Below, piece by piece: positions 1 through 12,290 of a stretch of DNA of 12,290 nt. Every line of letters starts with the position of its first letter. The first letter of the stretch is position 1. Source of the stretch: a virus. Where the stretch lies: IMG/VR virus record IMGVR_UViG_3300009285_000039, positions 1 through 12,290 of that record. One strand, given 5' to 3'. The notes below the pieces were generated by a model, which was not told the DNA's origin, did not search any database, and worked only from the letters and a program-made list of their open reading frames with translations. Both the position numbers and the translations under genes were made by a program.

Positions 1-77
1 AGCTTATTAATTAATAATTCTATCTCGAATGTGAATACTTTAGGTATAAGAACACAAACAGGATGCTACTATAATAC
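1..77. repeat. Left copy of an exact 77-nt terminal overlap (identical to 12214..12290), indicating circular closure and a unique length of 12,213 bp
   Basis: Base-by-base comparison of the first 77 nt (agcttattaattaataattc...ctactataatac) with the last 77 nt shows no mismatch. The reading frame is continuous across the join. Confidence 0.9.
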
Positions 78-1041
78 TATCGCAAATAATTCTGTCAATA
101 ATAGTCAATGGAATTGTTATGATGCTGATGGATACTATAATAATTATACTACAAACATAGCTTATAATTGTTACCATAATAGTCTAGATATCTGTGGAAT
201 GACTACCCCGAGCATAAGAGCAGTAGGTGGTGTCATATCAGGAAATATTGTTTATGGCAGAGCATTAGCATATTTTTGTTATGGGATAAATATGACACTT
301 AAAAATAATATTGGATACTCTTTAACTGATAATGATGCTGGTGCTTATGGTATAGGTGTAGAGGGTTATCCCGCTAATATGTCTAATATATTGATAGAAA
401 ATAATACTTTGCATCAATATAACATTACAAGATTCATCGCTGTTGGCGGGAATGGTGTTATAATTAAAAACAATAAGTTTAATGGTTCAGGGTATGGTGC
501 GAAGATATATGCTTATCCGCCGAATCCTATAATGGTAAATATTACATTTATTAACAATACTATGATTAGTGATGATGACTTAATTTATGAGGTTGAGCAG
601 AACAATAGAAGCAATATAACTATTTATCAGAATAGTAATTATACATTTCGGGCAGTCTCAGTCGCAGGTCGGGGAGCATATTATACATTATATGCTACAG
701 GAGACTATAATGATGCCTTTAATGCTACTGGTGGGATAATTCAAGCGAACTTTACTATCTTAAGTGGCTATTTAAGTAATGGTGAGGTAATTAATGTGAC
801 AGCATTAGAGAATGGTTCGGCTCCGCCTGGAGGATCCTGTTCTTATGGTGGTTCGGGTGTCTGGATCATTAATATGTCTCTTAATTGTAATATCACTGCA
901 CCATTCACTGGCAACATATCGTTGATTGATAATGGAAATGTTTATATTAATTCCACTGTTAATGTGAGCAATAATTGGGCTCCATTAATGGGACAAATTA
1001 GGTGGTTCCTATCAGGAGCTAGGGTTAATAGGGTATATTGA
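1..1041 (+). CDS. C-terminal 346 aa of the 695-aa exported LamG-like / parallel beta-helix protein, continuing from 11167..12213 (putative receptor-binding protein, adhesin or depolymerase)
   Basis: Position 1 starts a codon in the same frame as ATG 11167 once the 77-nt overlap is collapsed. There are repeated N-rich beta-helix-type turns (NNSVNN, IENNTLH, IKNNKFN, FINNTMIS). Stop TGA is at 1039-1041. The GTG start at 31 in the ORF track is an artefact of the linear cut. Confidence 0.8.
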   Translation, partial: SLLINNSISNVNTLGIRTQTGCYYNTIANNSVNNSQWNCYDADGYYNNYTTNIAYNCYHNSLDICGMTTPSIRAVGGVISGNIVYGRALAYFCYGINMTLKNNIGYSLTDNDAGAYGIGVEGYPANMSNILIENNTLHQYNITRFIAVGGNGVIIKNNKFNGSGYGAKIYAYPPNPIMVNITFINNTMISDDDLIYEVEQNNRSNITIYQNSNYTFRAVSVAGRGAYYTLYATGDYNDAFNATGGIIQANFTILSGYLSNGEVINVTALENGSAPPGGSCSYGGSGVWIINMSLNCNITAPFTGNISLIDNGNVYINSTVNVSNNWAPLMGQIRWFLSGARVNRVY

Positions 1042-1314: not shown

Positions 1315-1325
1315 AGAAATTATTA

Positions 1326-1345
1326 GGGGACGTGATATCGTCCCC
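1326..1345. terminator. GC-rich hairpin between the convergent arms (stem GGGGACG, loop TGATAT, stem CGTCCCC), a candidate bidirectional terminator
   Basis: A perfect 7-bp stem read directly from the sequence. It lies in the 52-nt gap between the stop of 1051..1314 (+) and the stop of 1367..1696 (-). There is no clean T-run on the plus side and only a partly T-rich tail on the minus side. Confidence 0.5.
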
Positions 1346-1366
1346 CCAGATGTTCTTCCCCCCAAC

Positions 1367-1702: not shown

Positions 1703-2137
1703 TCACCTTCCGTATAGTTCGTTTAAGTTCGTTTCGAGTGTTTCAATAATCTTCTGAGCCATGATCTTGCGTGTTCTGCACTCAATAACTATGAGTTGAT
1801 ATCGTTCAATCATTGTATCCAGGATCCTTCTTAGTGTTTCTGGCCTGGTGCATATTGGTCTATTAGTCCATCTCAGGTCCATGAACTCCTGGATTGTTCC
1901 TTCTATGAAAATATAAAAAGTTTTACCCTGAAGTCTAGATCGGGTTATTTCGCGTTTAAATCTATCATGTCCCTTAATGATGCTTCCATATAGGTCCGCA
2001 AGACTTTTGCGTTCTAACACAATGTAAGGTACTAAATCAGGTGTATTATAGTCTCCTTCTTCTAGTTTGCGCCTGAGTGTCTTGTGTCTAGTGAATGATA
2101 AGGGTTTTTGTTCTCTAGTATCAATTATGATCTGCAT
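1703..2137 (-). CDS. ERCC4-type (XPF/Mus81/Hef-like) structure-specific nuclease, 144 aa
   Basis: Hallmark motifs are IIDTREQ near the N-terminus, then GDY, then VLERKSLADLYGSI, which matches the GDxn-ERKxxxD signature of the ERCC4 nuclease domain. Confidence 0.8.
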   Translation of the reverse strand: MQIIIDTREQKPLSFTRHKTLRRKLEEGDYNTPDLVPYIVLERKSLADLYGSIIKGHDRFKREITRSRLQGKTFYIFIEGTIQEFMDLRWTNRPICTRPETLRRILDTMIERYQLIVIECRTRKIMAQKIIETLETNLNELYGR

Positions 2138-2229: not shown

Positions 2230-2559
2230 TCATTGATTGTCGGGTCCACTCTTAACCTCAGGATCAGGATCTACAAACGTGCTTAACAGGTTCTGTTGTA
2301 AGCTAGATGTGCTCAGATCTGCCATTGCTGCCTCAACAGGCGCGAGTGCAGTTAGATCATAAAACATATGCCTGCGGTATTGATGTTTCTTTAGCCATCC
2401 CCTGTATACCATTGATTGCAGTATCTTCATTGTGTAGCTATAATCTATTGCTAGCTTATTGCTTATTGCTGTCACATTCTTTCTTGTGTTGTGCACTATG
2501 TTTAGGTATACTAGTATCCTGGCTTCACTTTCTTTTATTAACTTTTTTGGTCTTACCAT
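2230..2559 (-). CDS. Winged helix-turn-helix transcriptional regulator (109 aa)
   Basis: Perfect SD AAGGAGG upstream of the ATG at 2559. The segment ARILVYLNIV..NVTAISNKLAIDYSYTMKILQSMVYRGWLKK fits an ArsR/MarR-like helix-turn-helix plus wing layout. The C-terminal tail is acidic and probably disordered. Confidence 0.6.
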   Translation of the reverse strand: MVRPKKLIKESEARILVYLNIVHNTRKNVTAISNKLAIDYSYTMKILQSMVYRGWLKKHQYRRHMFYDLTALAPVEAAMADLSTSSLQQNLLSTFVDPDPEVKSGPDNQ

Positions 2560-2562
2560 ATC

Positions 2563-2973
2563 TTATTCCTCCTTAACTACTTCTAATATTACGCCGAAAT
2601 TGAAATAGAATCTACCTTTTGCATCTGTCAAGTCTGCACCTCTCAAGTCTGCACCTCTCAAGTCTGCTCCTGTTAAGTCTGCAGCTGTCAAGTCTGCACC
2701 TCTCAAGTCTGCTCCTCTCAAGTCTGCACCTGTCAAGTCTGCACCTGTCAAGTCTGCACCTCTCAAGTCTGCACCTCTCAAGTCTGCATCTCTCAAGTCT
2801 GCACCTCTCAAGTCTGCACCTGTCAAGTCTGCATCTGTCAAGTCTGCATCTCTCAAGTCTGCACCTCTCAAGTCTGCAATTTCCAATAATATTTTTCCTG
2901 TAATCCTATTAGTTATTTTCATTTTGTCCTCATTATCTTGTTCATGTATCGGTTGAATTTTCTCATGCTCCAA
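2563..2973 (-). CDS. Pentapeptide-repeat protein with 17 consecutive A-D-L-(R/T)-(G/D/A) units and an acidic net charge
   Basis: The translation is ADLRG/ADLRD/ADLTD/ADLTG x17, with 21 Asp versus 10 Arg inside the repeat. The track start at 2973 is TTG. An in-frame ATG at 2922 preceded by GAGGA is the more likely start, giving 119 aa. Confidence 0.85.
   Translation of the reverse strand: MEHEKIQPIHEQDNEDKMKITNRITGKILLEIADLRGADLRDADLTDADLTGADLRGADLRDADLRGADLRGADLTGADLTGADLRGADLRGADLTAADLTGADLRGADLRGADLTDAKGRFYFNFGVILEVVKEE
2621..2875. repeat. Tandem array of 17 x 15-nt units (consensus gcacctctcaagtct) encoding the pentapeptide repeats
   Basis: Unit-by-unit count: 7 units are identical to gcacctctcaagtct, 3 to gcacctgtcaagtct, 2 each to gcatctgtcaagtct and gcatctctcaagtct, and 3 are singletons. 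Very few differences are synonymous. Confidence 0.95.
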
Positions 2974-3015
2974 TCTTTGATATCAACCTTTTCAACCTTT
3001 TTAACGATCTTTTTC

Positions 3016-3192
3016 TTAGCTTTTGTTGTAGTCACTTTTGCCTCTACTGAACACTACTGCTGTGTATTGGATTGTCATGCCTGATTCTTTGTTTACGTGT
3101 GTTTGTGTTGCGAATACGTTAACGGTTTTTTCGTATTCATTGACTAATTTGTCAAATTCTTCTGCACTATCACTTGTTATGGTTTTTATCAT
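3016..3192 (-). CDS. 58-aa small protein, first gene of the leftward arm (MIKTITSDSAEEFDKLVNEYEKTVNVFATQTHVNKESGMTIQYTAVVFSRGKSDYNKS); function unknown
   Basis: Hand translation; it falls below the 60-aa cutoff of the ORF track. SD GGTGAT (3198-3203, minus strand) lies 5 nt upstream of the ATG. The layout resembles small Cse60-like alpha/beta phage proteins, which is weak recognition only. Confidence 0.5.
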   Translation of the reverse strand: MIKTITSDSAEEFDKLVNEYEKTVNVFATQTHVNKESGMTIQYTAVVFSRGKSDYNKS

Positions 3193-3347: not shown

Positions 3348-3642
3348 CACACACCCTGCTAACTAAGCAAACACTCATTAGACGTATATAATAATAAAAA
3401 AGTGCATAACTTATATATAAGGTTTATGAAAGATAAATCATTACTACTTAAAAATACAACAACGTTTTATGTCTTTTTTACCATGTTTCCACACGAAATC
3501 AAGCATTTATGTTTTTTAAGCACAATATAAGAACAAAAAACTACCTGTAGTAATAATCCCCAACAAAGATTTTTGTCAGTTTTTTGATCAAATACACATT
3601 ATAATCGTGTGGTGTGTATGAACATATAAAGAGTAGTGCAAC

Positions 3643-3666
3643 ATCATGCACTAGCGCGTGCATGAT
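3643..3666. promoter_or_regulatory. Perfect inverted repeat ATCATGCAC-tagcgc-GTGCATGAT (9-bp stems, 6-nt loop)
   Basis: Read directly. The CATGCAC core recurs a third time at 3685-3691. It lies in the centre of the non-coding control region. Confidence 0.6.
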
Positions 3667-3754: not shown

Positions 3755-3874
3755 GTATACTAATATGTCATTATCACTACTAGTATACGTTTATCCATTC
3801 TGTTCACTCATAATCAATGACGTATACTAGTATACAAATAGCTATACTAGTATGTCACTAAGTATACTATTCAC
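3755..3874. promoter_or_regulatory. Array of about 5 palindromic sites built on ATACT/AGTAT half-sites (best copy GTATACTAGTATAC at 3822-3835), interleaved with TGTCAC and CACTAAG motifs
   Basis: Copies: GTATACTAATAT 3755-3766, CTACTAGTATAC 3777-3788, GTATACTAGTATAC 3822-3835 (a perfect 14-bp palindrome), TATACTAGTATG 3843-3854, GTATACTATT 3862-3871. There is an extra half-site, CTAGTATA, at 3942-3949. Confidence 0.7.
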
Positions 3875-3888
3875 TAAGCGACAGTTAA

Positions 3889-3909
3889 GGGGGGGGATAA
3901 AGGGGGGGG
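3889..3909. promoter_or_regulatory. G8-ATAAA-G8 homopolymer doublet 46 nt upstream of the terL start
   Basis: Read directly: G at 3889-3896, ataaa, then G at 3902-3909. By eye these are the longest G runs in an otherwise AT-rich unit. Confidence 0.8.
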
Positions 3910-3954
3910 TTAGATGTCACAAAAATTATTATTAATGATGTCTAGTATATTTTT

Positions 3955-5214
3955 ATGATTCTTGATCAATGGCAGAAGGATGTTTTGGAAGCTGAGGGGA
4001 ATATTTGTATTTGTTCTGGTCGTCAGGTTGGTAAGTCTGAGATTATTGCCCTAAAAACTGCTACCTTCATCTCTAAGTATCCCAACAAAAAGGTTCTTAT
4101 TATCTCGGTGACTGAGGCTCAGGCTGAGAATATGCTTATTAAGATCTTGTTGCATTTGCATGCTATTGATAAGCGGTTGATTGCTAGGGGTGGTAATCGT
4201 CCTACTAAGCATAAGGTTGTTCTTATGAATGGGAGTTATGCTATCACTAAAGCAGTCGGACAATATGGCTTAGGAGCTCTTGGTTTGACTATGGACGTGG
4301 TTGTTCCTGATGAGTGTGCTTATCTTCCTGAGACTATTTGGGCGTCGATCACCCCTATGCTCTTGACCACTGGTGGTTCTTTGTGGTTATTGAGTACGCC
4401 TAATGCTCAGGAAGGATATTTTTATAAGGCGTATACTGATCCGTCTTATGGTTTTAGGACTTTTCATGTGAATTCTGAGGATGTGGCTAATGCTCGTGCT
4501 GAGCCTATGCGTTCTCTTATGTTAGCACACTTGGAAAGGGAGAAGTTGCGTATGTCTCCTATGCAGTATGCTCAGCAATACCTAGCACAATTTCAAGAAG
4601 AATTGGGACAATTGTTTTCTGATGAGCTAATTCAGGGTGCGCAGGTTATGGATCGTGTGCCTCTTGTTAAGGGTGATTATTATTTGGGTGTGGATGTTGC
4701 TAGGATGGGCGGTGATGAGACTACTTTCGAGATCCTGGAGCGTAAGGATAAGAAGTATTATCAAAGAGAAAATATTACTAATAAGTATACGCTAACAACT
4801 GAAACCATCAGCAAGATTTTAGAATTAGATCGCATTTATGATTTCAAACAAATATATATTGATGATGGTGGCTTAGGCGTGGCTGTGTTTGATCAATTAT
4901 TGAATACTAATCAGACAAAGAATAAAGTGGTTGCGATTAATAATGCTGCTAGATCTATAGAAATGGATAACAACCGCAGACGTAAACTCTTGAAGGAAGA
5001 TCTTTACCTTAACTTCTTAAACCTCATCGAGAAACAGGAATTATTTTTGTTGAAAGATCCCGAAATTTTTACTAGTTTAAAGTCTATTATGATTGAACAT
5101 GATGTGCAAAAACAAAACATTAAAATATATGGGCGTTATAGTCACATTACAGAAGGCTTAATTCGGGCTGCTTGGAGTAATCACTCGACGAGACTAAACC
5201 TTTGGGTTAGGTAA
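3955..5214 (+). CDS. terL: Terminase large subunit (ATPase plus RNase H-like nuclease), 419 aa
   Basis: Walker A is CSGRQVGKSE, Walker B with the catalytic Glu is DVVVPDECAY, and the coupling motif is LLSTPN. Nuclease acidic motifs are YYLGVDVARMGGDETT and IYIDDGGLGVAVFDQL. No SD is present, so this may be a leaderless first gene. Confidence 0.9.
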   Translation: MILDQWQKDVLEAEGNICICSGRQVGKSEIIALKTATFISKYPNKKVLIISVTEAQAENMLIKILLHLHAIDKRLIARGGNRPTKHKVVLMNGSYAITKAVGQYGLGALGLTMDVVVPDECAYLPETIWASITPMLLTTGGSLWLLSTPNAQEGYFYKAYTDPSYGFRTFHVNSEDVANARAEPMRSLMLAHLEREKLRMSPMQYAQQYLAQFQEELGQLFSDELIQGAQVMDRVPLVKGDYYLGVDVARMGGDETTFEILERKDKKYYQRENITNKYTLTTETISKILELDRIYDFKQIYIDDGGLGVAVFDQLLNTNQTKNKVVAINNAARSIEMDNNRRRKLLKEDLYLNFLNLIEKQELFLLKDPEIFTSLKSIMIEHDVQKQNIKIYGRYSHITEGLIRAAWSNHSTRLNLWVR

Positions 5215-7577: not shown

Positions 7578-8507
7578 ATGGCAAACTATAAAGAGTATAT
7601 GGGAAATCAGGTGAGCAAATTCTTACCTAAAACAAAAAAGAAATCAGTTACCCTCCCAGAGAAGGAGAATACCCCACTTCCCGATCCTAGAATGCAGGGA
7701 AGCATGAAATCATTATATGAGGATATTAAGAAGAATAAGTCTGCTCCTGAAGGTTATCATAAAGCTGGGACTTATGCTTCAGATTATAAGCCAATCATAG
7801 AGCCTACAGTTAGAGAGAAGGTGCAGGCAACTATTGATCAAGCAAATTTAAAGAAACAGATGGAGACAGAACAGGCAACCCCAAATGTTTCTCAAGAACA
7901 ATTATCACAGCTCGGACAATTAACACCTGAACAGCAAGCAGTAGCTAATAGTAATTCTAAACTAGCAGGTAAATTTAATCTTGGTGCTGTTGGTGCGGCT
8001 GTTGCTGAACGTGCAAGTATAGGTGCTGTTACTGGAGCAGTAGGCGGTGCAGGTATTGGCGCATTGGCTGGCGGTGTTGGTGCAGTTCCTGGAGCTGTGG
8101 CTGGTGGTATTGGTGGGGCTGCGGTTGGGACTATTAGTGCATTCTTTACAGGTTTTAAAGATGTCAATTATGATAATATCGCAGGGATAGATAGTAATGT
8201 TGCTAATGCTAAATGGAAGATAAATAATGCTGCTTCAATAGCGTTAAAAGGTGCGAGTTATGAGGATGTGAAAAAGGAAGTAGGTGATAGTATAGCACAA
8301 CTTGATCTTGCTGAACGTCAATATAAGCGTGCTAGTAAGAATGTTTATGCTGAGAGAACTCATACTATGCAGAAGATGGAGGATATTATTAAGTATCGAA
8401 GGGATATTCTTCCTGATAAGATATTGCGTGTAGAGTTAGCACTACAGAGACCTAATCCTTCAGGGATAGATAATGGAGTTGATGAGGTAGGTGTGACTTA
8501 TGGTTGA
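7578..8507 (+). CDS. Protein with a basic N-terminus, a central glycine-zipper hydrophobic block and a C-terminal helical region (309 aa); scaffold-like or ejection/pilot-like
   Basis: GAVGAAVAERASIGAVTGAVGGAGIGALAGGVGAVPGAVAGGIGGAAVGTISAFFTGF is a long GxxxG/AxxxG run. The gene is immediately downstream of the portal. SD GGAGTGGTG is present. Confidence 0.55.
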   Translation: MANYKEYMGNQVSKFLPKTKKKSVTLPEKENTPLPDPRMQGSMKSLYEDIKKNKSAPEGYHKAGTYASDYKPIIEPTVREKVQATIDQANLKKQMETEQATPNVSQEQLSQLGQLTPEQQAVANSNSKLAGKFNLGAVGAAVAERASIGAVTGAVGGAGIGALAGGVGAVPGAVAGGIGGAAVGTISAFFTGFKDVNYDNIAGIDSNVANAKWKINNAASIALKGASYEDVKKEVGDSIAQLDLAERQYKRASKNVYAERTHTMQKMEDIIKYRRDILPDKILRVELALQRPNPSGIDNGVDEVGVTYG

Positions 8508-11166: not shown

Positions 11167-12290
11167 ATGAATAAGGTACTATTATTTTGGGGATTATGTA
11201 TAGTTATTAGTACGAGTATGGTTTATGCTGCTGTGCCTTTGCCTAAATATTTTTGGAATGGTTCATCGGTGGTATCTCAAGGCACCCCTATTGTTTTAAA
11301 GAATTATAATTCTACAAATTTTCATGCTGATGGGACACTTGATTATTATAATTTTAGTGAAACAACACAAAGTTTTTTAGGAAACACAACTATTAGTTTG
11401 TTAGATTTTAATATTACTTCTGTTGGTGCTATAGCTTCATGTTTTAGTGGCAACAAATTTAGTGCTACAGATGTCTTATTTGTTAATACTCAGGATCCAA
11501 AGAATAGTACTGTCGCTGTGACCTTTGCTAGTGGTGGAACATCTGTTAGGTTTGGATTAGAAAATGGCAGTACTTCAAAAGTTTCTGTTAGTAGTGGAGT
11601 GTTAAAGAATTTTACTTGGTACTGTATTGTAGGAAACATTTTCGATATTTCTAATGTTGATTTGTTTTTGAATGGTGTTAATCAGACTGGGACTTCAGCG
11701 ATACCTGCATTAGATACTCAGGGTGTTTATATCGGTGGTTTTCCTAAATACATTTATTATAGTAATCTATTGGTAGCCTATATTGCTATCTATAATACCA
11801 CCTTATCTGCTTCTGAGATAGCGGAATTAAATATTACATGGACGAGTTATGACCCTTATAATTCTAATGAAACTAATGGTTCTTGTGTTTCACCTTCCGA
11901 AAATTTATATATTAATAACGCTACAGTGTTATGTCCAGGCGTTTTTACTTTGGTTGATCCTGATGATAATGGTGCTATAATTATTAATGCAAGTAATATT
12001 GTTCTAACCTGTAATGATACTGTATTGAAGGGTGATTATGGTGCTGGAAGTATAGGAATATATATTTCTAATAAGAATAACGTTACTGTAGAGAATTGCG
12101 GTATAAGAGAATACTTTAGGGGAATATACACTTATGGGACTATATCAAATACTATAAAGAATAATGTTTTTAATCATACAGATTATGGCATTGATACACA
12201 ATACACTAATGACAGCTTATTAATTAATAATTCTATCTCGAATGTGAATACTTTAGGTATAAGAACACAAACAGGATGCTACTATAATAC
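11167..12290 (+). CDS. N-terminal part of the 695-aa exported protein: signal peptide, LamG/concanavalin-like lectin domain, then the start of the parallel beta-helix (continues at 78..1041 after collapsing the overlap)
   Basis: Hand translation shows no stop from ATG 11167 to the window end. The N-terminus MNKVLLFWGLCIVISTSMVYA-AV looks like a cleavable signal peptide. W.CIVGN...VDLFLNGVNQTG......GVYIGGFP.....LVAYIAIYNTTLSASEIAELN is a typical LamG_3-type signature. IVLTCNDTVLKG...GIYISNKNNVTVENCGI...GIYTY.TISNTIKNNVFN matches PbH1/NosD-like beta-helix repeats. Confidence 0.8.
   Translation, partial: MNKVLLFWGLCIVISTSMVYAAVPLPKYFWNGSSVVSQGTPIVLKNYNSTNFHADGTLDYYNFSETTQSFLGNTTISLLDFNITSVGAIASCFSGNKFSATDVLFVNTQDPKNSTVAVTFASGGTSVRFGLENGSTSKVSVSSGVLKNFTWYCIVGNIFDISNVDLFLNGVNQTGTSAIPALDTQGVYIGGFPKYIYYSNLLVAYIAIYNTTLSASEIAELNITWTSYDPYNSNETNGSCVSPSENLYINNATVLCPGVFTLVDPDDNGAIIINASNIVLTCNDTVLKGDYGAGSIGIYISNKNNVTVENCGIREYFRGIYTYGTISNTIKNNVFNHTDYGIDTQYTNDSLLINNSISNVNTLGIRTQTGCYYN
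12214..12290. repeat. Right copy of the exact 77-nt terminal overlap (identical to 1..77)
   Basis: See the feature at 1..77. Confidence 0.9.

What the first reader, a model, noticed from the sequence alone, without database searches (positions are those of the whole stretch)
2563..2973. Acidic pentapeptide-repeat protein encoded by 17 nearly identical 15-nt DNA units: candidate DNA mimic or anti-defence factor with a built-in expansion mechanism
The protein is almost nothing but A-D-L-(R/T)-(G/D/A) x17, just over four coils if it adopts the known four-pentapeptides-per-coil quadrilateral beta-helix. Inside the repeat there are 21 Asp against 10 Arg. Known pentapeptide-repeat proteins such as Qnr and MfpA mimic B-form DNA and bind topoisomerases. 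Other viral DNA mimics (Ocr, ArdA) block restriction and other DNA-targeting defences. A small acidic viral version placed second in the early-type operon fits an anti-defence or host-takeover role.

Independently, the DNA itself is striking. Seven units are base-for-base identical and nearly all variation is non-synonymous, falling at the two variable residue positions, with very few synonymous changes. That pattern argues for recent slippage or recombination-driven expansion and contraction and selection on surface residues, not for an ancient repeat. Copy number could therefore vary within populations.
Basis: partly seen in the sequence, partly recalled or inferred. Interest (0 to 1): 0.8.

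Follow-up and report, generated by a model that had tools for sequence, protein, structure and literature searches.

The report
Small viral pentapeptide-repeat protein, length-variable
A tiny groundwater virus carries a 119-residue acidic pentapeptide-repeat protein whose 15-base coding units are so alike that the repeat number differs between otherwise identical genomes; the protein type is well known, and the suggested role as a DNA mimic or anti-defence factor is still untested.

Summary
There are 17 in-frame 15-nt units at 2623-2877 (minus strand), seven of them identical, with 21 Asp and 10 Arg. The gene is 2563-2922 with an ATG start, not the TTG at 2973, and it is third in its operon.

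It is a canonical pentapeptide-repeat protein (Pfam E = 1e-35). The AlphaFold model is a confident beta-solenoid of about 4.25 coils with hairpin caps at both ends. It falls far below the Qnr and MfpA family cut-offs and has no C-terminal helix.

It belongs to a small family of capped mini pentapeptide-repeat proteins found in early-type operons of unrelated viruses. It is absent from close relatives of this 12.2-kb circular virus.

Public assemblies of the same virus show 17, 13 (the majority), 7, 6 and 3 units, and some contigs break inside the array. The 17 versus 13 difference is real: one 60-nt block, equal to one coil, carrying private substitutions. It is most simply a deletion. The shorter forms may be low-coverage assembly collapse.

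The claim of selection on surface residues is not statistically supported. A DNA-mimic or anti-defence role is plausible but unshown. One preprint offers a phage precedent.

Verdict: a new member of a known kind, of moderate interest.

The parts
2563..2922 (-). Gene for the 119-aa mini pentapeptide-repeat protein (ATG 2922, stop TAA 2565-2563)
   Evidence: Pfam PF00805 at 121 bits, E = 1e-35. GAGG motif 4 nt before the ATG and none before TTG 2973. Public gene calls of 99, 69 and 64 aa use the same ATG. AlphaFold2 pLDDT 88, and 94-98 in the repeats.
2623..2877 (-). Array of 17 tandem 15-nt units, each encoding A-D-L-(R/T)-(G/D/A)
   Evidence: Seven units are identical. Every Ala codon is GCA and every Asp codon is GAC; Leu is TTG in 16 of 17 units. 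The longest exact internal repeat is 43 nt.
2654..2713 (-). 60-nt block (four units, one solenoid coil) present in the window but absent from the 13-unit majority allele. It holds all four private substitutions (GGA, GCT = Ala, TTA, GGA).
   Evidence: BLAST difference map against scaffold_3184 and others; unit-by-unit comparison.
2878..2922 (-). N-terminal cap MKITNRITGKILLEI, predicted as a beta-hairpin
   Evidence: Strands 2-4 and 11-14 in the model. The same I-x-(N/K)-x-x-TG-x-(V/I)-L start is seen in P0044, P0064, P0066, P0101, P0291 and P0319.
2566..2622 (-). C-terminal cap AKGRFYFNFGVILEVVKEE, predicted as a beta-hairpin. Its last codons contain the AGGAGG ribosome-binding site of the next gene.
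   Evidence: Strands 104-107 and 111-114. G, F, FN, GV, L and V are invariant in P0274, P0281, P0291 and P0319. Shine-Dalgarno context.
2919..3035 (-). Upstream 38-aa basic gene whose stop overlaps the start of the repeat-protein gene (ATGA)
   Evidence: Translation. A homologue with ...DWSMKKFNRVMKNL is present in relatives L013/L033. Called as a gene in L003, L005, L006 and L008.
3016..3192 (-). First gene of the leftward operon (58 aa, no known family)
   Evidence: An identical protein occurs on about 22 public contigs.
2230..2559 (-). Downstream winged-helix (TrmB/HTH_27-like) regulator, 3 nt after the stop of the repeat-protein gene
   Evidence: Pfam PF01978 at E = 9e-7 and PF13463 at E = 4e-5.
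1703..2137 (-). ERCC4-type structure-specific nuclease in the same operon
   Evidence: Pfam PF02732 at E = 3e-9; phrog_3490 at E = 2e-19. Conserved in relatives L020, L021 and L022.
1325..1346 (-). Terminator-like hairpin that closes the leftward operon after the 109-aa gene (1367-1696)

Best explanation
The gene (2563-2922, minus strand) encodes a minimal, capped pentapeptide-repeat beta-solenoid. It has an N-terminal hairpin, 17 ADLxx units (about 4.25 coils, roughly 20 Å long) and a C-terminal hairpin. Asp ladders run along all four faces, and the net charge is about -10.

It is an accessory gene in the leftward, non-structural operon of a complete 12.2-kb circular head-tail-type virus from groundwater metagenomes. 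It belongs to a small family of similarly capped mini pentapeptide-repeat proteins that sit in early-type operons of unrelated viruses.

Because the 15-nt units are nearly identical, slippage or unequal recombination adds or removes whole units, always in frame. At least two alleles exist in nature, with 17 and 13 units. They differ by exactly one coil.

The most likely mode of action is inferred, not shown. The rigid acidic solenoid would act early in infection as a stoichiometric binding decoy for a host protein that handles nucleic acid, such as a defence nuclease, a topoisomerase or a chromatin protein. Partial DNA mimicry is one way it could do this.

My confidence in each step: fold and family 0.95; at least two real length alleles 0.85; decoy, anti-defence or takeover role 0.3.
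For: Fold and family:
- Pfam Pentapeptide E = 1e-35.
- AlphaFold2 pLDDT 88 overall and 94-98 in the repeats, with no helices.
- All top Foldseek hits are pentapeptide-repeat structures: Rfr23 at 0.4 Å over 85 columns, HetL at TM 0.75.

Acidity: pI 4.4. Repeat-region charge is -13.3 per 100 aa against a median of -6.1 in 121 similar proteins.

Accessory status and context:
- Absent from seven relatives with 40-83% terminase identity.
- Homologues with the same caps lie in small-gene operons of other viruses. One is divergent from the terminase and upstream of Ku and a ligase.
- Many phage pentapeptide-repeat proteins exist, all uncharacterised.

Length alleles:
- 17, 13, 7, 6 and 3 units, plus contigs that break in the array.
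- The window and the majority strain are identical over about 9 kb except for the array and one 63-nt patch.
- Three of the four private changes in the extra block are synonymous.

Precedent: deleting the pentapeptide-repeat gene 24_60 of Vibrio phage 24 sensitises the phage to the Sucellos defence (bioRxiv 10.1101/2024.07.02.601686).
Against: - There is no functional data of any kind.
- Acidity and Asp at the second position are generic features of pentapeptide repeats, including those with no link to DNA (HetL, thylakoid-lumen Rfr proteins).
- The Asp ladders run parallel to the solenoid axis rather than helically. A monomer would cover only about 6 bp. Both points are inferred from standard Rfr geometry and were not measured on coordinates.
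- The pentapeptide-repeat 'DNA mimics' McbG and QnrB did not inhibit BREX (PMC7261183).
- The host is unknown.
- Alleles of 7 units or fewer may be assembly artefacts: coverage is 0.97-3.0x, and their junctions fall where low-k graphs collapse.
- The 7-unit protein gives a weaker model, pLDDT 73.
Confidence: 0.4

Rival explanations
1. The protein is a generic protein-protein adaptor with no link to DNA mimicry or host defence. For example, the solenoid could bind and modulate a viral partner (the neighbouring winged-helix regulator or the ERCC4 nuclease) or a host metabolic or structural protein, as HetL, PipB2 and SV2 do through their repeat domains.
For: The closest matches by sequence and structure are HetL, Np275/276 and consensus-design solenoids, not Qnr or MfpA. 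Translation is tightly coupled to the regulator gene: a 3-nt gap, with the ribosome-binding site inside the repeat-protein gene. Known pentapeptide-repeat functions are diverse (established knowledge; NCBIfam names).
Against: The neighbours differ in the other viruses that carry this mini family, so a fixed viral partner is unlikely. The protein is unusually acidic for its class.
Confidence: 0.3
2. The ORF has little or no selected function. It would be a dispensable passenger gene whose minisatellite drifts in length.
For: The gene is absent from all close relatives. Very short alleles, if real, would barely fold. Event counts give no sign of positive selection.
Against: The caps are conserved across divergent viruses, with invariant G, F, FN, GV, L and V. 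All alleles stay in frame with intact caps. Three of four private changes are synonymous. The gene sits in a compact, translationally coupled operon of a 12-kb genome that has little room for junk.
Confidence: 0.14
3. It is a Qnr/MfpA-type topoisomerase protector or inhibitor that binds the host type II topoisomerase as a DNA-segment mimic.
For: It shares the fold class, and MfpA and Qnr appear among the structural matches. It has an acidic surface.
Against: Qnr model: 44.5 bits against a cut-off of 240. MfpA model: 42 bits against 360. The protein has 119 aa and about 4 coils, against about 180-220 aa and 8-10 coils. No C-terminal helix is predicted. The host may be an archaeon and may lack gyrase, but this is not known.
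Confidence: 0.07
4. The 15-nt array works mainly as a DNA element (iterons, operator sites or a packaging signal), and the coding capacity is incidental.
For: There are 17 near-identical direct repeats in a very small genome, and synonymous positions are almost invariant.
Against: The frame encodes a perfect canonical motif with family-specific caps. The unit is absent from the intergenic control region, where a different palindrome (TATACTAGTATA) recurs. Private changes are mostly synonymous. Relatives lack the array altogether.
Confidence: 0.04

Closest known systems
Pentapeptide-repeat family (Pfam PF00805, Rfr fold), for example Rfr23, Np275/Np276, HetL and the designed 'beta1' consensus solenoids
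   Same: Canonical A(D/N)LXX units with four units per coil. Predicted right-handed quadrilateral beta-helix. Best matches by both sequence and structure.
   Different: Much smaller (119 aa, about 4.25 coils). Caps are hairpins at both ends. The units are almost identical at the DNA level: 5 distinct pentapeptides among 17 units, a ratio of 0.29-0.33 depending on where the run is delimited, against a median of 0.73 in 120 similar proteins. The gene is encoded by a virus.
Qnr / MfpA / AlbG / McbG topoisomerase-interacting pentapeptide-repeat proteins
   Same: Same fold class and an acidic surface. This is the basis of the DNA-mimic idea.
   Different: Far below the family cut-offs. Half their length, with no dimerising C-terminal helix and no Qnr loops. 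No link to gyrase is known here.
Uncharacterised phage pentapeptide-repeat proteins (phrog_7713 and others; BFVD entries such as Eggerthella phage PMBT5 and Rheinheimera phage Barba13A)
   Same: Small viral pentapeptide-repeat proteins of unknown function: phrog_7713 at E = 5e-37 and Foldseek E about 1e-10.
   Different: None of them has a shown function. The cap-defined subfamily found here (P0274, P0281, P0291, P0319) comes only from metagenomes.
Vibrio phage 24 gene 24_60, a pentapeptide-repeat protein postulated to counter the Sucellos defence (bioRxiv 10.1101/2024.07.02.601686)
   Same: A phage-encoded pentapeptide-repeat protein with genetic evidence for an anti-defence role.
   Different: Its sequence relationship to this protein was not tested. 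It comes from a bacterial phage, its mechanism is unknown, and the claim is preliminary.
DNA-mimic anti-restriction proteins Ocr and ArdA
   Same: Small, very acidic and expressed early.
   Different: No shared sequence or fold. Their carboxylates follow the DNA helix, whereas here the Asp residues form straight ladders (inference). DNA mimicry alone did not suffice against BREX.
In-frame variable-number tandem repeats (minisatellites) in microbial genes
   Same: Near-identical tandem units. Length differs between otherwise identical genomes and stays in frame.
   Different: The locus lies in a viral non-structural gene and changes the length of a solenoid. It does not switch a surface protein on or off. 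No phenotype is known.

Membership tests
Pentapeptide-repeat family (PF00805) | Tandem A(D/N)LXX pentapeptides that score above the Pfam gathering threshold | tested here: met
   17 of 17 units are ADLxx. Score is 121.3 bits against a cut-off of 20.2.
Pentapeptide-repeat family (PF00805) | Right-handed quadrilateral beta-helix (Rfr fold) | tested here: met
   This rests on prediction only. AlphaFold2 gives pLDDT 94-98 across the repeats. The top 40 or more PDB matches are all pentapeptide-repeat structures.
Qnr / MfpA topoisomerase-protecting pentapeptide-repeat proteins | Score above the NCBIfam family cut-off | tested here: not met
   Qnr: 44.5 bits against 240. MfpA: 42.3 bits against 360. 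All Qnr sub-families score below 45 bits against cut-offs of 425-500.
Qnr / MfpA topoisomerase-protecting pentapeptide-repeat proteins | About 180-220 aa with 8-10 coils and a C-terminal alpha-helix that forms the tail-to-tail dimer | tested here: not met
   The protein has 119 aa and about 4.25 coils. DSSP finds no helix in the model, and the C-terminus is a beta-hairpin.
Qnr / MfpA topoisomerase-protecting pentapeptide-repeat proteins | Binds or protects DNA gyrase or topoisomerase IV | not testable with these tools
   This needs a biochemical assay, and the host topoisomerases are unknown.
DNA-mimic anti-restriction proteins (Ocr, ArdA) | Homology in sequence or fold | tested here: not met
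   No such hit in Pfam, PHROGs, NCBIfam, PDB or BFVD. Every match is a pentapeptide-repeat protein.
DNA-mimic anti-restriction proteins (Ocr, ArdA) | Strong net negative charge | tested here: met
   pI 4.4 and net charge -9.5. The repeat holds 21 D and 10 R. This feature is not specific to DNA mimics.
DNA-mimic anti-restriction proteins (Ocr, ArdA) | Carboxylates spaced like B-DNA phosphates, and inhibition of DNA-binding enzymes | not testable with these tools
Viral capped mini pentapeptide-repeat subfamily (defined here) | N-terminal hairpin (I-x-(N/K)-x-x-TG-x-V/I-L), then only pentapeptide units, then the C-cap (A/V)(K/S)G(R/E/K)F(Y/I/F)FN(F/W/Y)GV-x-L-x-V | tested here: met
   Alignment with P0274, P0281, P0291 and P0319 shows invariant G103, F105, F107, N108, G110, V111, L113 and V115.
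In-frame variable-number tandem repeat | Repeat number differs between otherwise near-identical genomes | tested here: met
   17 against 13 units, with 100% identity over about 9 kb elsewhere apart from one 63-nt patch. The extra block carries private substitutions, so it cannot be an assembly artefact.
In-frame variable-number tandem repeat | Several alleles coexist in populations (7, 6 and 3 units) | tested here: inconclusive
   These alleles recur in independent assemblies made with three assemblers. However, they occur at 0.97-3x coverage and at junctions that graphs with k of 45 or less, or 30 or less, could collapse. No reads were available.

The most novel reading that the evidence does not exclude
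The array is a contingency locus in a viral counter-defence gene. By gaining or losing whole units or whole coils, the virus population would hold a standing set of acidic solenoid decoys of different lengths and face registers. These would be tuned to variable host DNA-sensing defence or topoisomerase targets. That would make it a length-adjustable DNA mimic, shared by a family of capped mini pentapeptide-repeat proteins across unrelated viruses.
Probability: 0.08. Interest if true: 0.75.

Novelty: new member of a known kind. Interest (0 to 1): 0.4.

Why it matters
Pentapeptide-repeat proteins are common in phage genomes, yet almost none has a known role. This one gives a compact and tractable case: 119 aa, nothing but caps and repeats, natural alleles that differ by exactly one coil, and a recognisable cap-defined family in the early operons of unrelated viruses.

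If such proteins prove to be decoys for host DNA-handling or defence proteins, a widespread class of hypothetical phage proteins would gain a function. The length alleles would then be a natural structure-function series.

For metagenomics it is also a caution. The array is where assemblies of this virus break or disagree, so repeat numbers taken from short-read contigs should not be trusted without spanning reads.

Tried and rejected
- **Exact-protein look-ups.** The 119-aa and 136-aa window proteins and the 99-aa and 116-aa alleles are not in the protein collection. Alleles were recovered through the neighbouring genes instead.
- **Collection scans.** DNA-pattern scans of viral contigs and metagenome contigs with the array flanks found nothing. 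A genome-contig scan with the terminase found no relative, so there is no provirus or host clue.
- **tblastn of the repeat protein against isolate phages.** No match, probably because of the low-complexity filter. The capsid protein also had no match.
- **Plus-strand ORF 2619-2903 (MHLSSLHLSSL...).** Rejected as the antisense shadow of the repeat. It has no family hit and no ribosome-binding context, and it opposes the direction of the operon.
- **TTG-2973 start.** Rejected.
- **Iteron or operator reading of the array.** Rejected as the main function.
- **Defence-system models (PADLOC).** No hit for the repeat protein.
- **RNA genes.** No tRNA or Rfam family in the window.
- **Flank haplotypes as a test of allele reality.** Uninformative. 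Alleles of 13, 7 and 6 units sit in identical 1.3-kb flanks, and both terminase haplotypes carry several alleles.
- **Literature searches.** No characterised archaeal-virus pentapeptide-repeat protein, no pentapeptide-repeat anti-CRISPR and no reported repeat-number variation in pentapeptide-repeat genes.

Full report
**1. The observation**

The minus-strand ORF 2563-2973 is present. Tandem Repeats Finder reports a 15-nt period with 17.3 copies and 91% matches at 2620-2878.

Parsing the frame gives exactly 17 units at 2623-2877, each A-D-L-(R/T)-(G/D/A). Seven units are identical (GCAGACTTGAGAGGT). Every Ala codon is GCA and every Asp codon is GAC. Leu is TTG in 16 of 17 units. Only columns 9, 11, 14 and 15 vary. 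The repeat contains 21 Asp and 10 Arg. The unit occurs nowhere else in the window at up to 2 mismatches, against 0.21 chance matches expected.

**2. Gene boundaries and operon**

ATG 2922 is the real start, for four reasons:
- It is preceded by GAGG, whereas TTG 2973 has no such motif. Five of the other six leftward genes carry a similar Shine-Dalgarno-like motif; the ERCC4 gene shows no clear one.
- Most public gene calls use this ATG.
- Related proteins start at the same hairpin sequence.
- The stretch 2919-3035 encodes, in another frame, a 38-aa basic protein. Its ...DWSM(R/K)KFNR... core is conserved in a relative with 77% terminase identity. Its stop overlaps the start of the repeat-protein gene as ATGA.

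The protein is therefore 119 aa, and the gene is third in a translationally coupled leftward operon. The order is: 58 aa, 38 aa, the repeat protein, a TrmB-like winged-helix protein, 42 aa, an ERCC4 nuclease and a 109-aa protein. A terminator-like hairpin closes the operon. The operon diverges from the terminase-portal-capsid module.

**3. The replicon**

The two ends of the window share an exact 77-nt overlap, so this is a complete circular or terminally redundant assembly of 12,213 bp.

It belongs to a large group of head-tail-type virus genomes. More than 1500 terminase relatives were found, and their contig lengths pile up at 11-12.3 kb. Two relatives also close into circles.

Samples that carry this virus include groundwater metagenomes. 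The host is unknown. Weak hints point to archaea: a TrmB-type regulator, ERCC4 matches to Hef and Xpf, and the best isolate terminase hit in Halogranum tailed virus 1.

**4. What the protein is**

- Pfam Pentapeptide scores 121 bits, E = 1e-35.
- The closest solved sequences are designed consensus solenoids, HetL and Np275/276. Qnr and MfpA are far weaker.
- AlphaFold2 gives pLDDT 88 overall and 94-98 through the repeats. It predicts an N-terminal hairpin, a C-terminal hairpin and no helix.
- Foldseek returns only pentapeptide-repeat structures from the PDB, and dozens of uncharacterised phage pentapeptide-repeat proteins from BFVD.
- NCBIfam places it far below the Qnr cut-off (44.5 against 240 bits) and the MfpA cut-off (42 against 360 bits).

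It is therefore a true pentapeptide-repeat protein but not a member of the topoisomerase-protecting families.

A full HMMER scan with the caps plus three units found small proteins with the same design and a conserved C-cap, (A/V)(K/S)G(R/E/K)F(Y/I/F)FN(F/W/Y)GV-x-L-x-V. Two of them could be placed in context. Both lie in runs of small genes in viral contigs. One is divergent from the terminase of an unrelated virus of at least 28 kb (partial contig) with an SU10-type capsid, and sits upstream of Ku and a ligase.

Close relatives of the window virus lack the gene. Another gene occupies the slot after the conserved 38-aa gene. The gene is therefore an accessory gene, apparently mobile between viruses and located in early-type operons.

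**5. Repeat-number variation**

The neighbouring proteins occur unchanged on about 22 public contigs. Reading the array in each contig gives the following:

| Units | Where seen |
|---|---|
| 17 | The window only |
| 13 | The majority: at least six loci shown, with 6 and 6 more similar places collapsed under two of them (these groups may overlap), from three assemblers. One copy has an N exactly at a variable column. |
| 7 | Three contigs |
| 6 | Two contigs |
| 3 | One contig |
| Contig ends inside the array | Three contigs, one of which both begins and ends in the array |

Compared with the majority strain, the window is 100% identical over about 9 kb except at two places. One is a 60-nt indel in the array (2654-2713). 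The other is a 63-nt intergenic patch.

The 60-nt block equals four units, which is one coil. It carries four private substitutions, three of them synonymous. It therefore cannot be an assembly artefact. The simplest history is a single deletion from 17 to 13 units between the identical starts of units 11 and 15.

The longest exact internal repeat is only 43-44 nt. The 13-unit form could be a graph shortcut only at k of 30 or less, and the 7-unit form only at k of 45 or less. However, the 7- and 3-unit contigs whose names report coverage come from 0.97-3.0x coverage, and multi-k assemblers can pass low-k collapses on to later rounds. I put the chance that the short alleles are real at about even.

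The 7-unit protein also gives a weaker model, pLDDT 73.

**6. The selection claim**

Counting units exaggerates the pattern, because units are copied. Counting minimal mutational events in the window gives about 3 non-synonymous (R/T, G/D, G/A) and 2-3 synonymous (TTA, and GGA once or twice). The unit has 3.67 synonymous and 11.33 non-synonymous sites.

Adding the two homologous arrays, which also use one Ala codon per array, gives roughly 19 non-synonymous to 3-4 synonymous events. This leans toward diversification of the outward-facing positions but is not significant. What is clear is DNA-level homogenisation: 5 distinct pentapeptides among 17 units, a ratio of 0.29-0.33 against a median of 0.73 in 120 similar proteins.

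**7. Function**

Nothing here tests function. Points in favour of a decoy, host-takeover or anti-defence role:
- The gene lies in early-type operons in at least three unrelated viruses.
- It is an accessory gene.
- The rigid surface is unusually acidic: -13.3 charges per 100 aa against a median of -6.1.
- A preprint reports that deleting a pentapeptide-repeat gene makes Vibrio phage 24 highly sensitive to the Sucellos defence.

Points against a specific DNA-mimic reading:
- Asp at the second position is generic to the family.
- From standard Rfr geometry, the charges form straight ladders and a monomer spans only about 20 Å, roughly 6 bp (inference).
- The protein lacks the length and the dimer helix of Qnr and MfpA.
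- McbG and QnrB did not affect BREX.
- A review of gyrase inhibitors lists phage peptides but no phage pentapeptide-repeat protein.

The array is unlikely to be a DNA-level element. The control region uses a different palindrome, and relatives lack the array altogether.

**8. Verdict**

This is a real, cleanly defined feature: a new member of the pentapeptide-repeat family in a small virus. It carries an in-frame repeat array that is prone to gaining and losing units, and at least two natural alleles differ by one coil.

The DNA-mimic or anti-defence idea remains a reasonable but untested hypothesis.

Noticed in passing
window 1-77 and 12214-12290; loci L020, L032: The window is a complete circular or terminally redundant assembly (exact 77-nt end overlap, 12,213 bp unique) of a head-tail-type virus. 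More than 1500 terminase relatives exist, with contig lengths clustering at 11-12.3 kb, and two relatives also close into circles. This looks like a large family of very small tailed-virus-like genomes.
   Followed up: partly
window 3593-3655: A 63-nt hypervariable patch in the divergent intergenic region (15 differing columns, overlapping a hairpin at 3634-3653). Apart from the repeat array, it is the only difference from the majority strain over about 9 kb.
   Followed up: partly
window 4162-4299: Contigs L004, L005 and L008 carry 28 substitutions packed into about 140 nt of the terminase gene and are otherwise near-identical. This looks like a recombination patch between strains.
   Followed up: no
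window 2919-3035 (-): An unlisted 38-aa, very basic gene (VTTTKAKKKIVKKVEKVDIKDWSMRKFNRYMNKIMRTK). It overlaps the 58-aa gene's end and the start of the repeat-protein gene, and it is conserved in a relative with 77% terminase identity (L013/L033, 214-348).
   Followed up: partly
window 2507-2518, 3823-3834, 3843-3854: The palindrome TATACTAGTATA occurs three times (0.12 expected). Two copies are in the divergent promoter region and one is inside the 5' end of the winged-helix gene. It is a candidate operator for that regulator.
   Followed up: no
window 3887-3912: Two tandem AAGGGGGGGG(A/T)TA motifs (G8 tracts) lie about 45 nt upstream of the terminase start.
   Followed up: no
window 11167-12213 joined to 1-1041 (+): A 695-aa protein wraps across the contig ends. 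It has a signal-peptide-like N-terminus, Laminin_G_3 and NosD/beta-helix domains, and 42 N-X-S/T sequons, and is probably the receptor-binding protein. In contig L004 the sequence beyond about window position 1304 is replaced by unrelated genes (a 429-aa gene and others).
   Followed up: partly
L037 8001-8417 and neighbours: An unrelated virus (SU10-type capsid; partial 28-kb contig, the same protein also seen on a 43-kb contig) from the same set of assemblies carries a 138-aa mini pentapeptide-repeat protein with the same C-cap. It sits in the operon divergent from its terminase, a few genes upstream of Ku and an ATP-dependent DNA ligase.
   Followed up: partly
window 7578-8507 (+): A 309-aa protein with a Gly/Ala-rich repetitive core (33-nt tandem repeat at 8046-8115) matches DUF6861. 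It lies between the portal and capsid genes.
   Followed up: no
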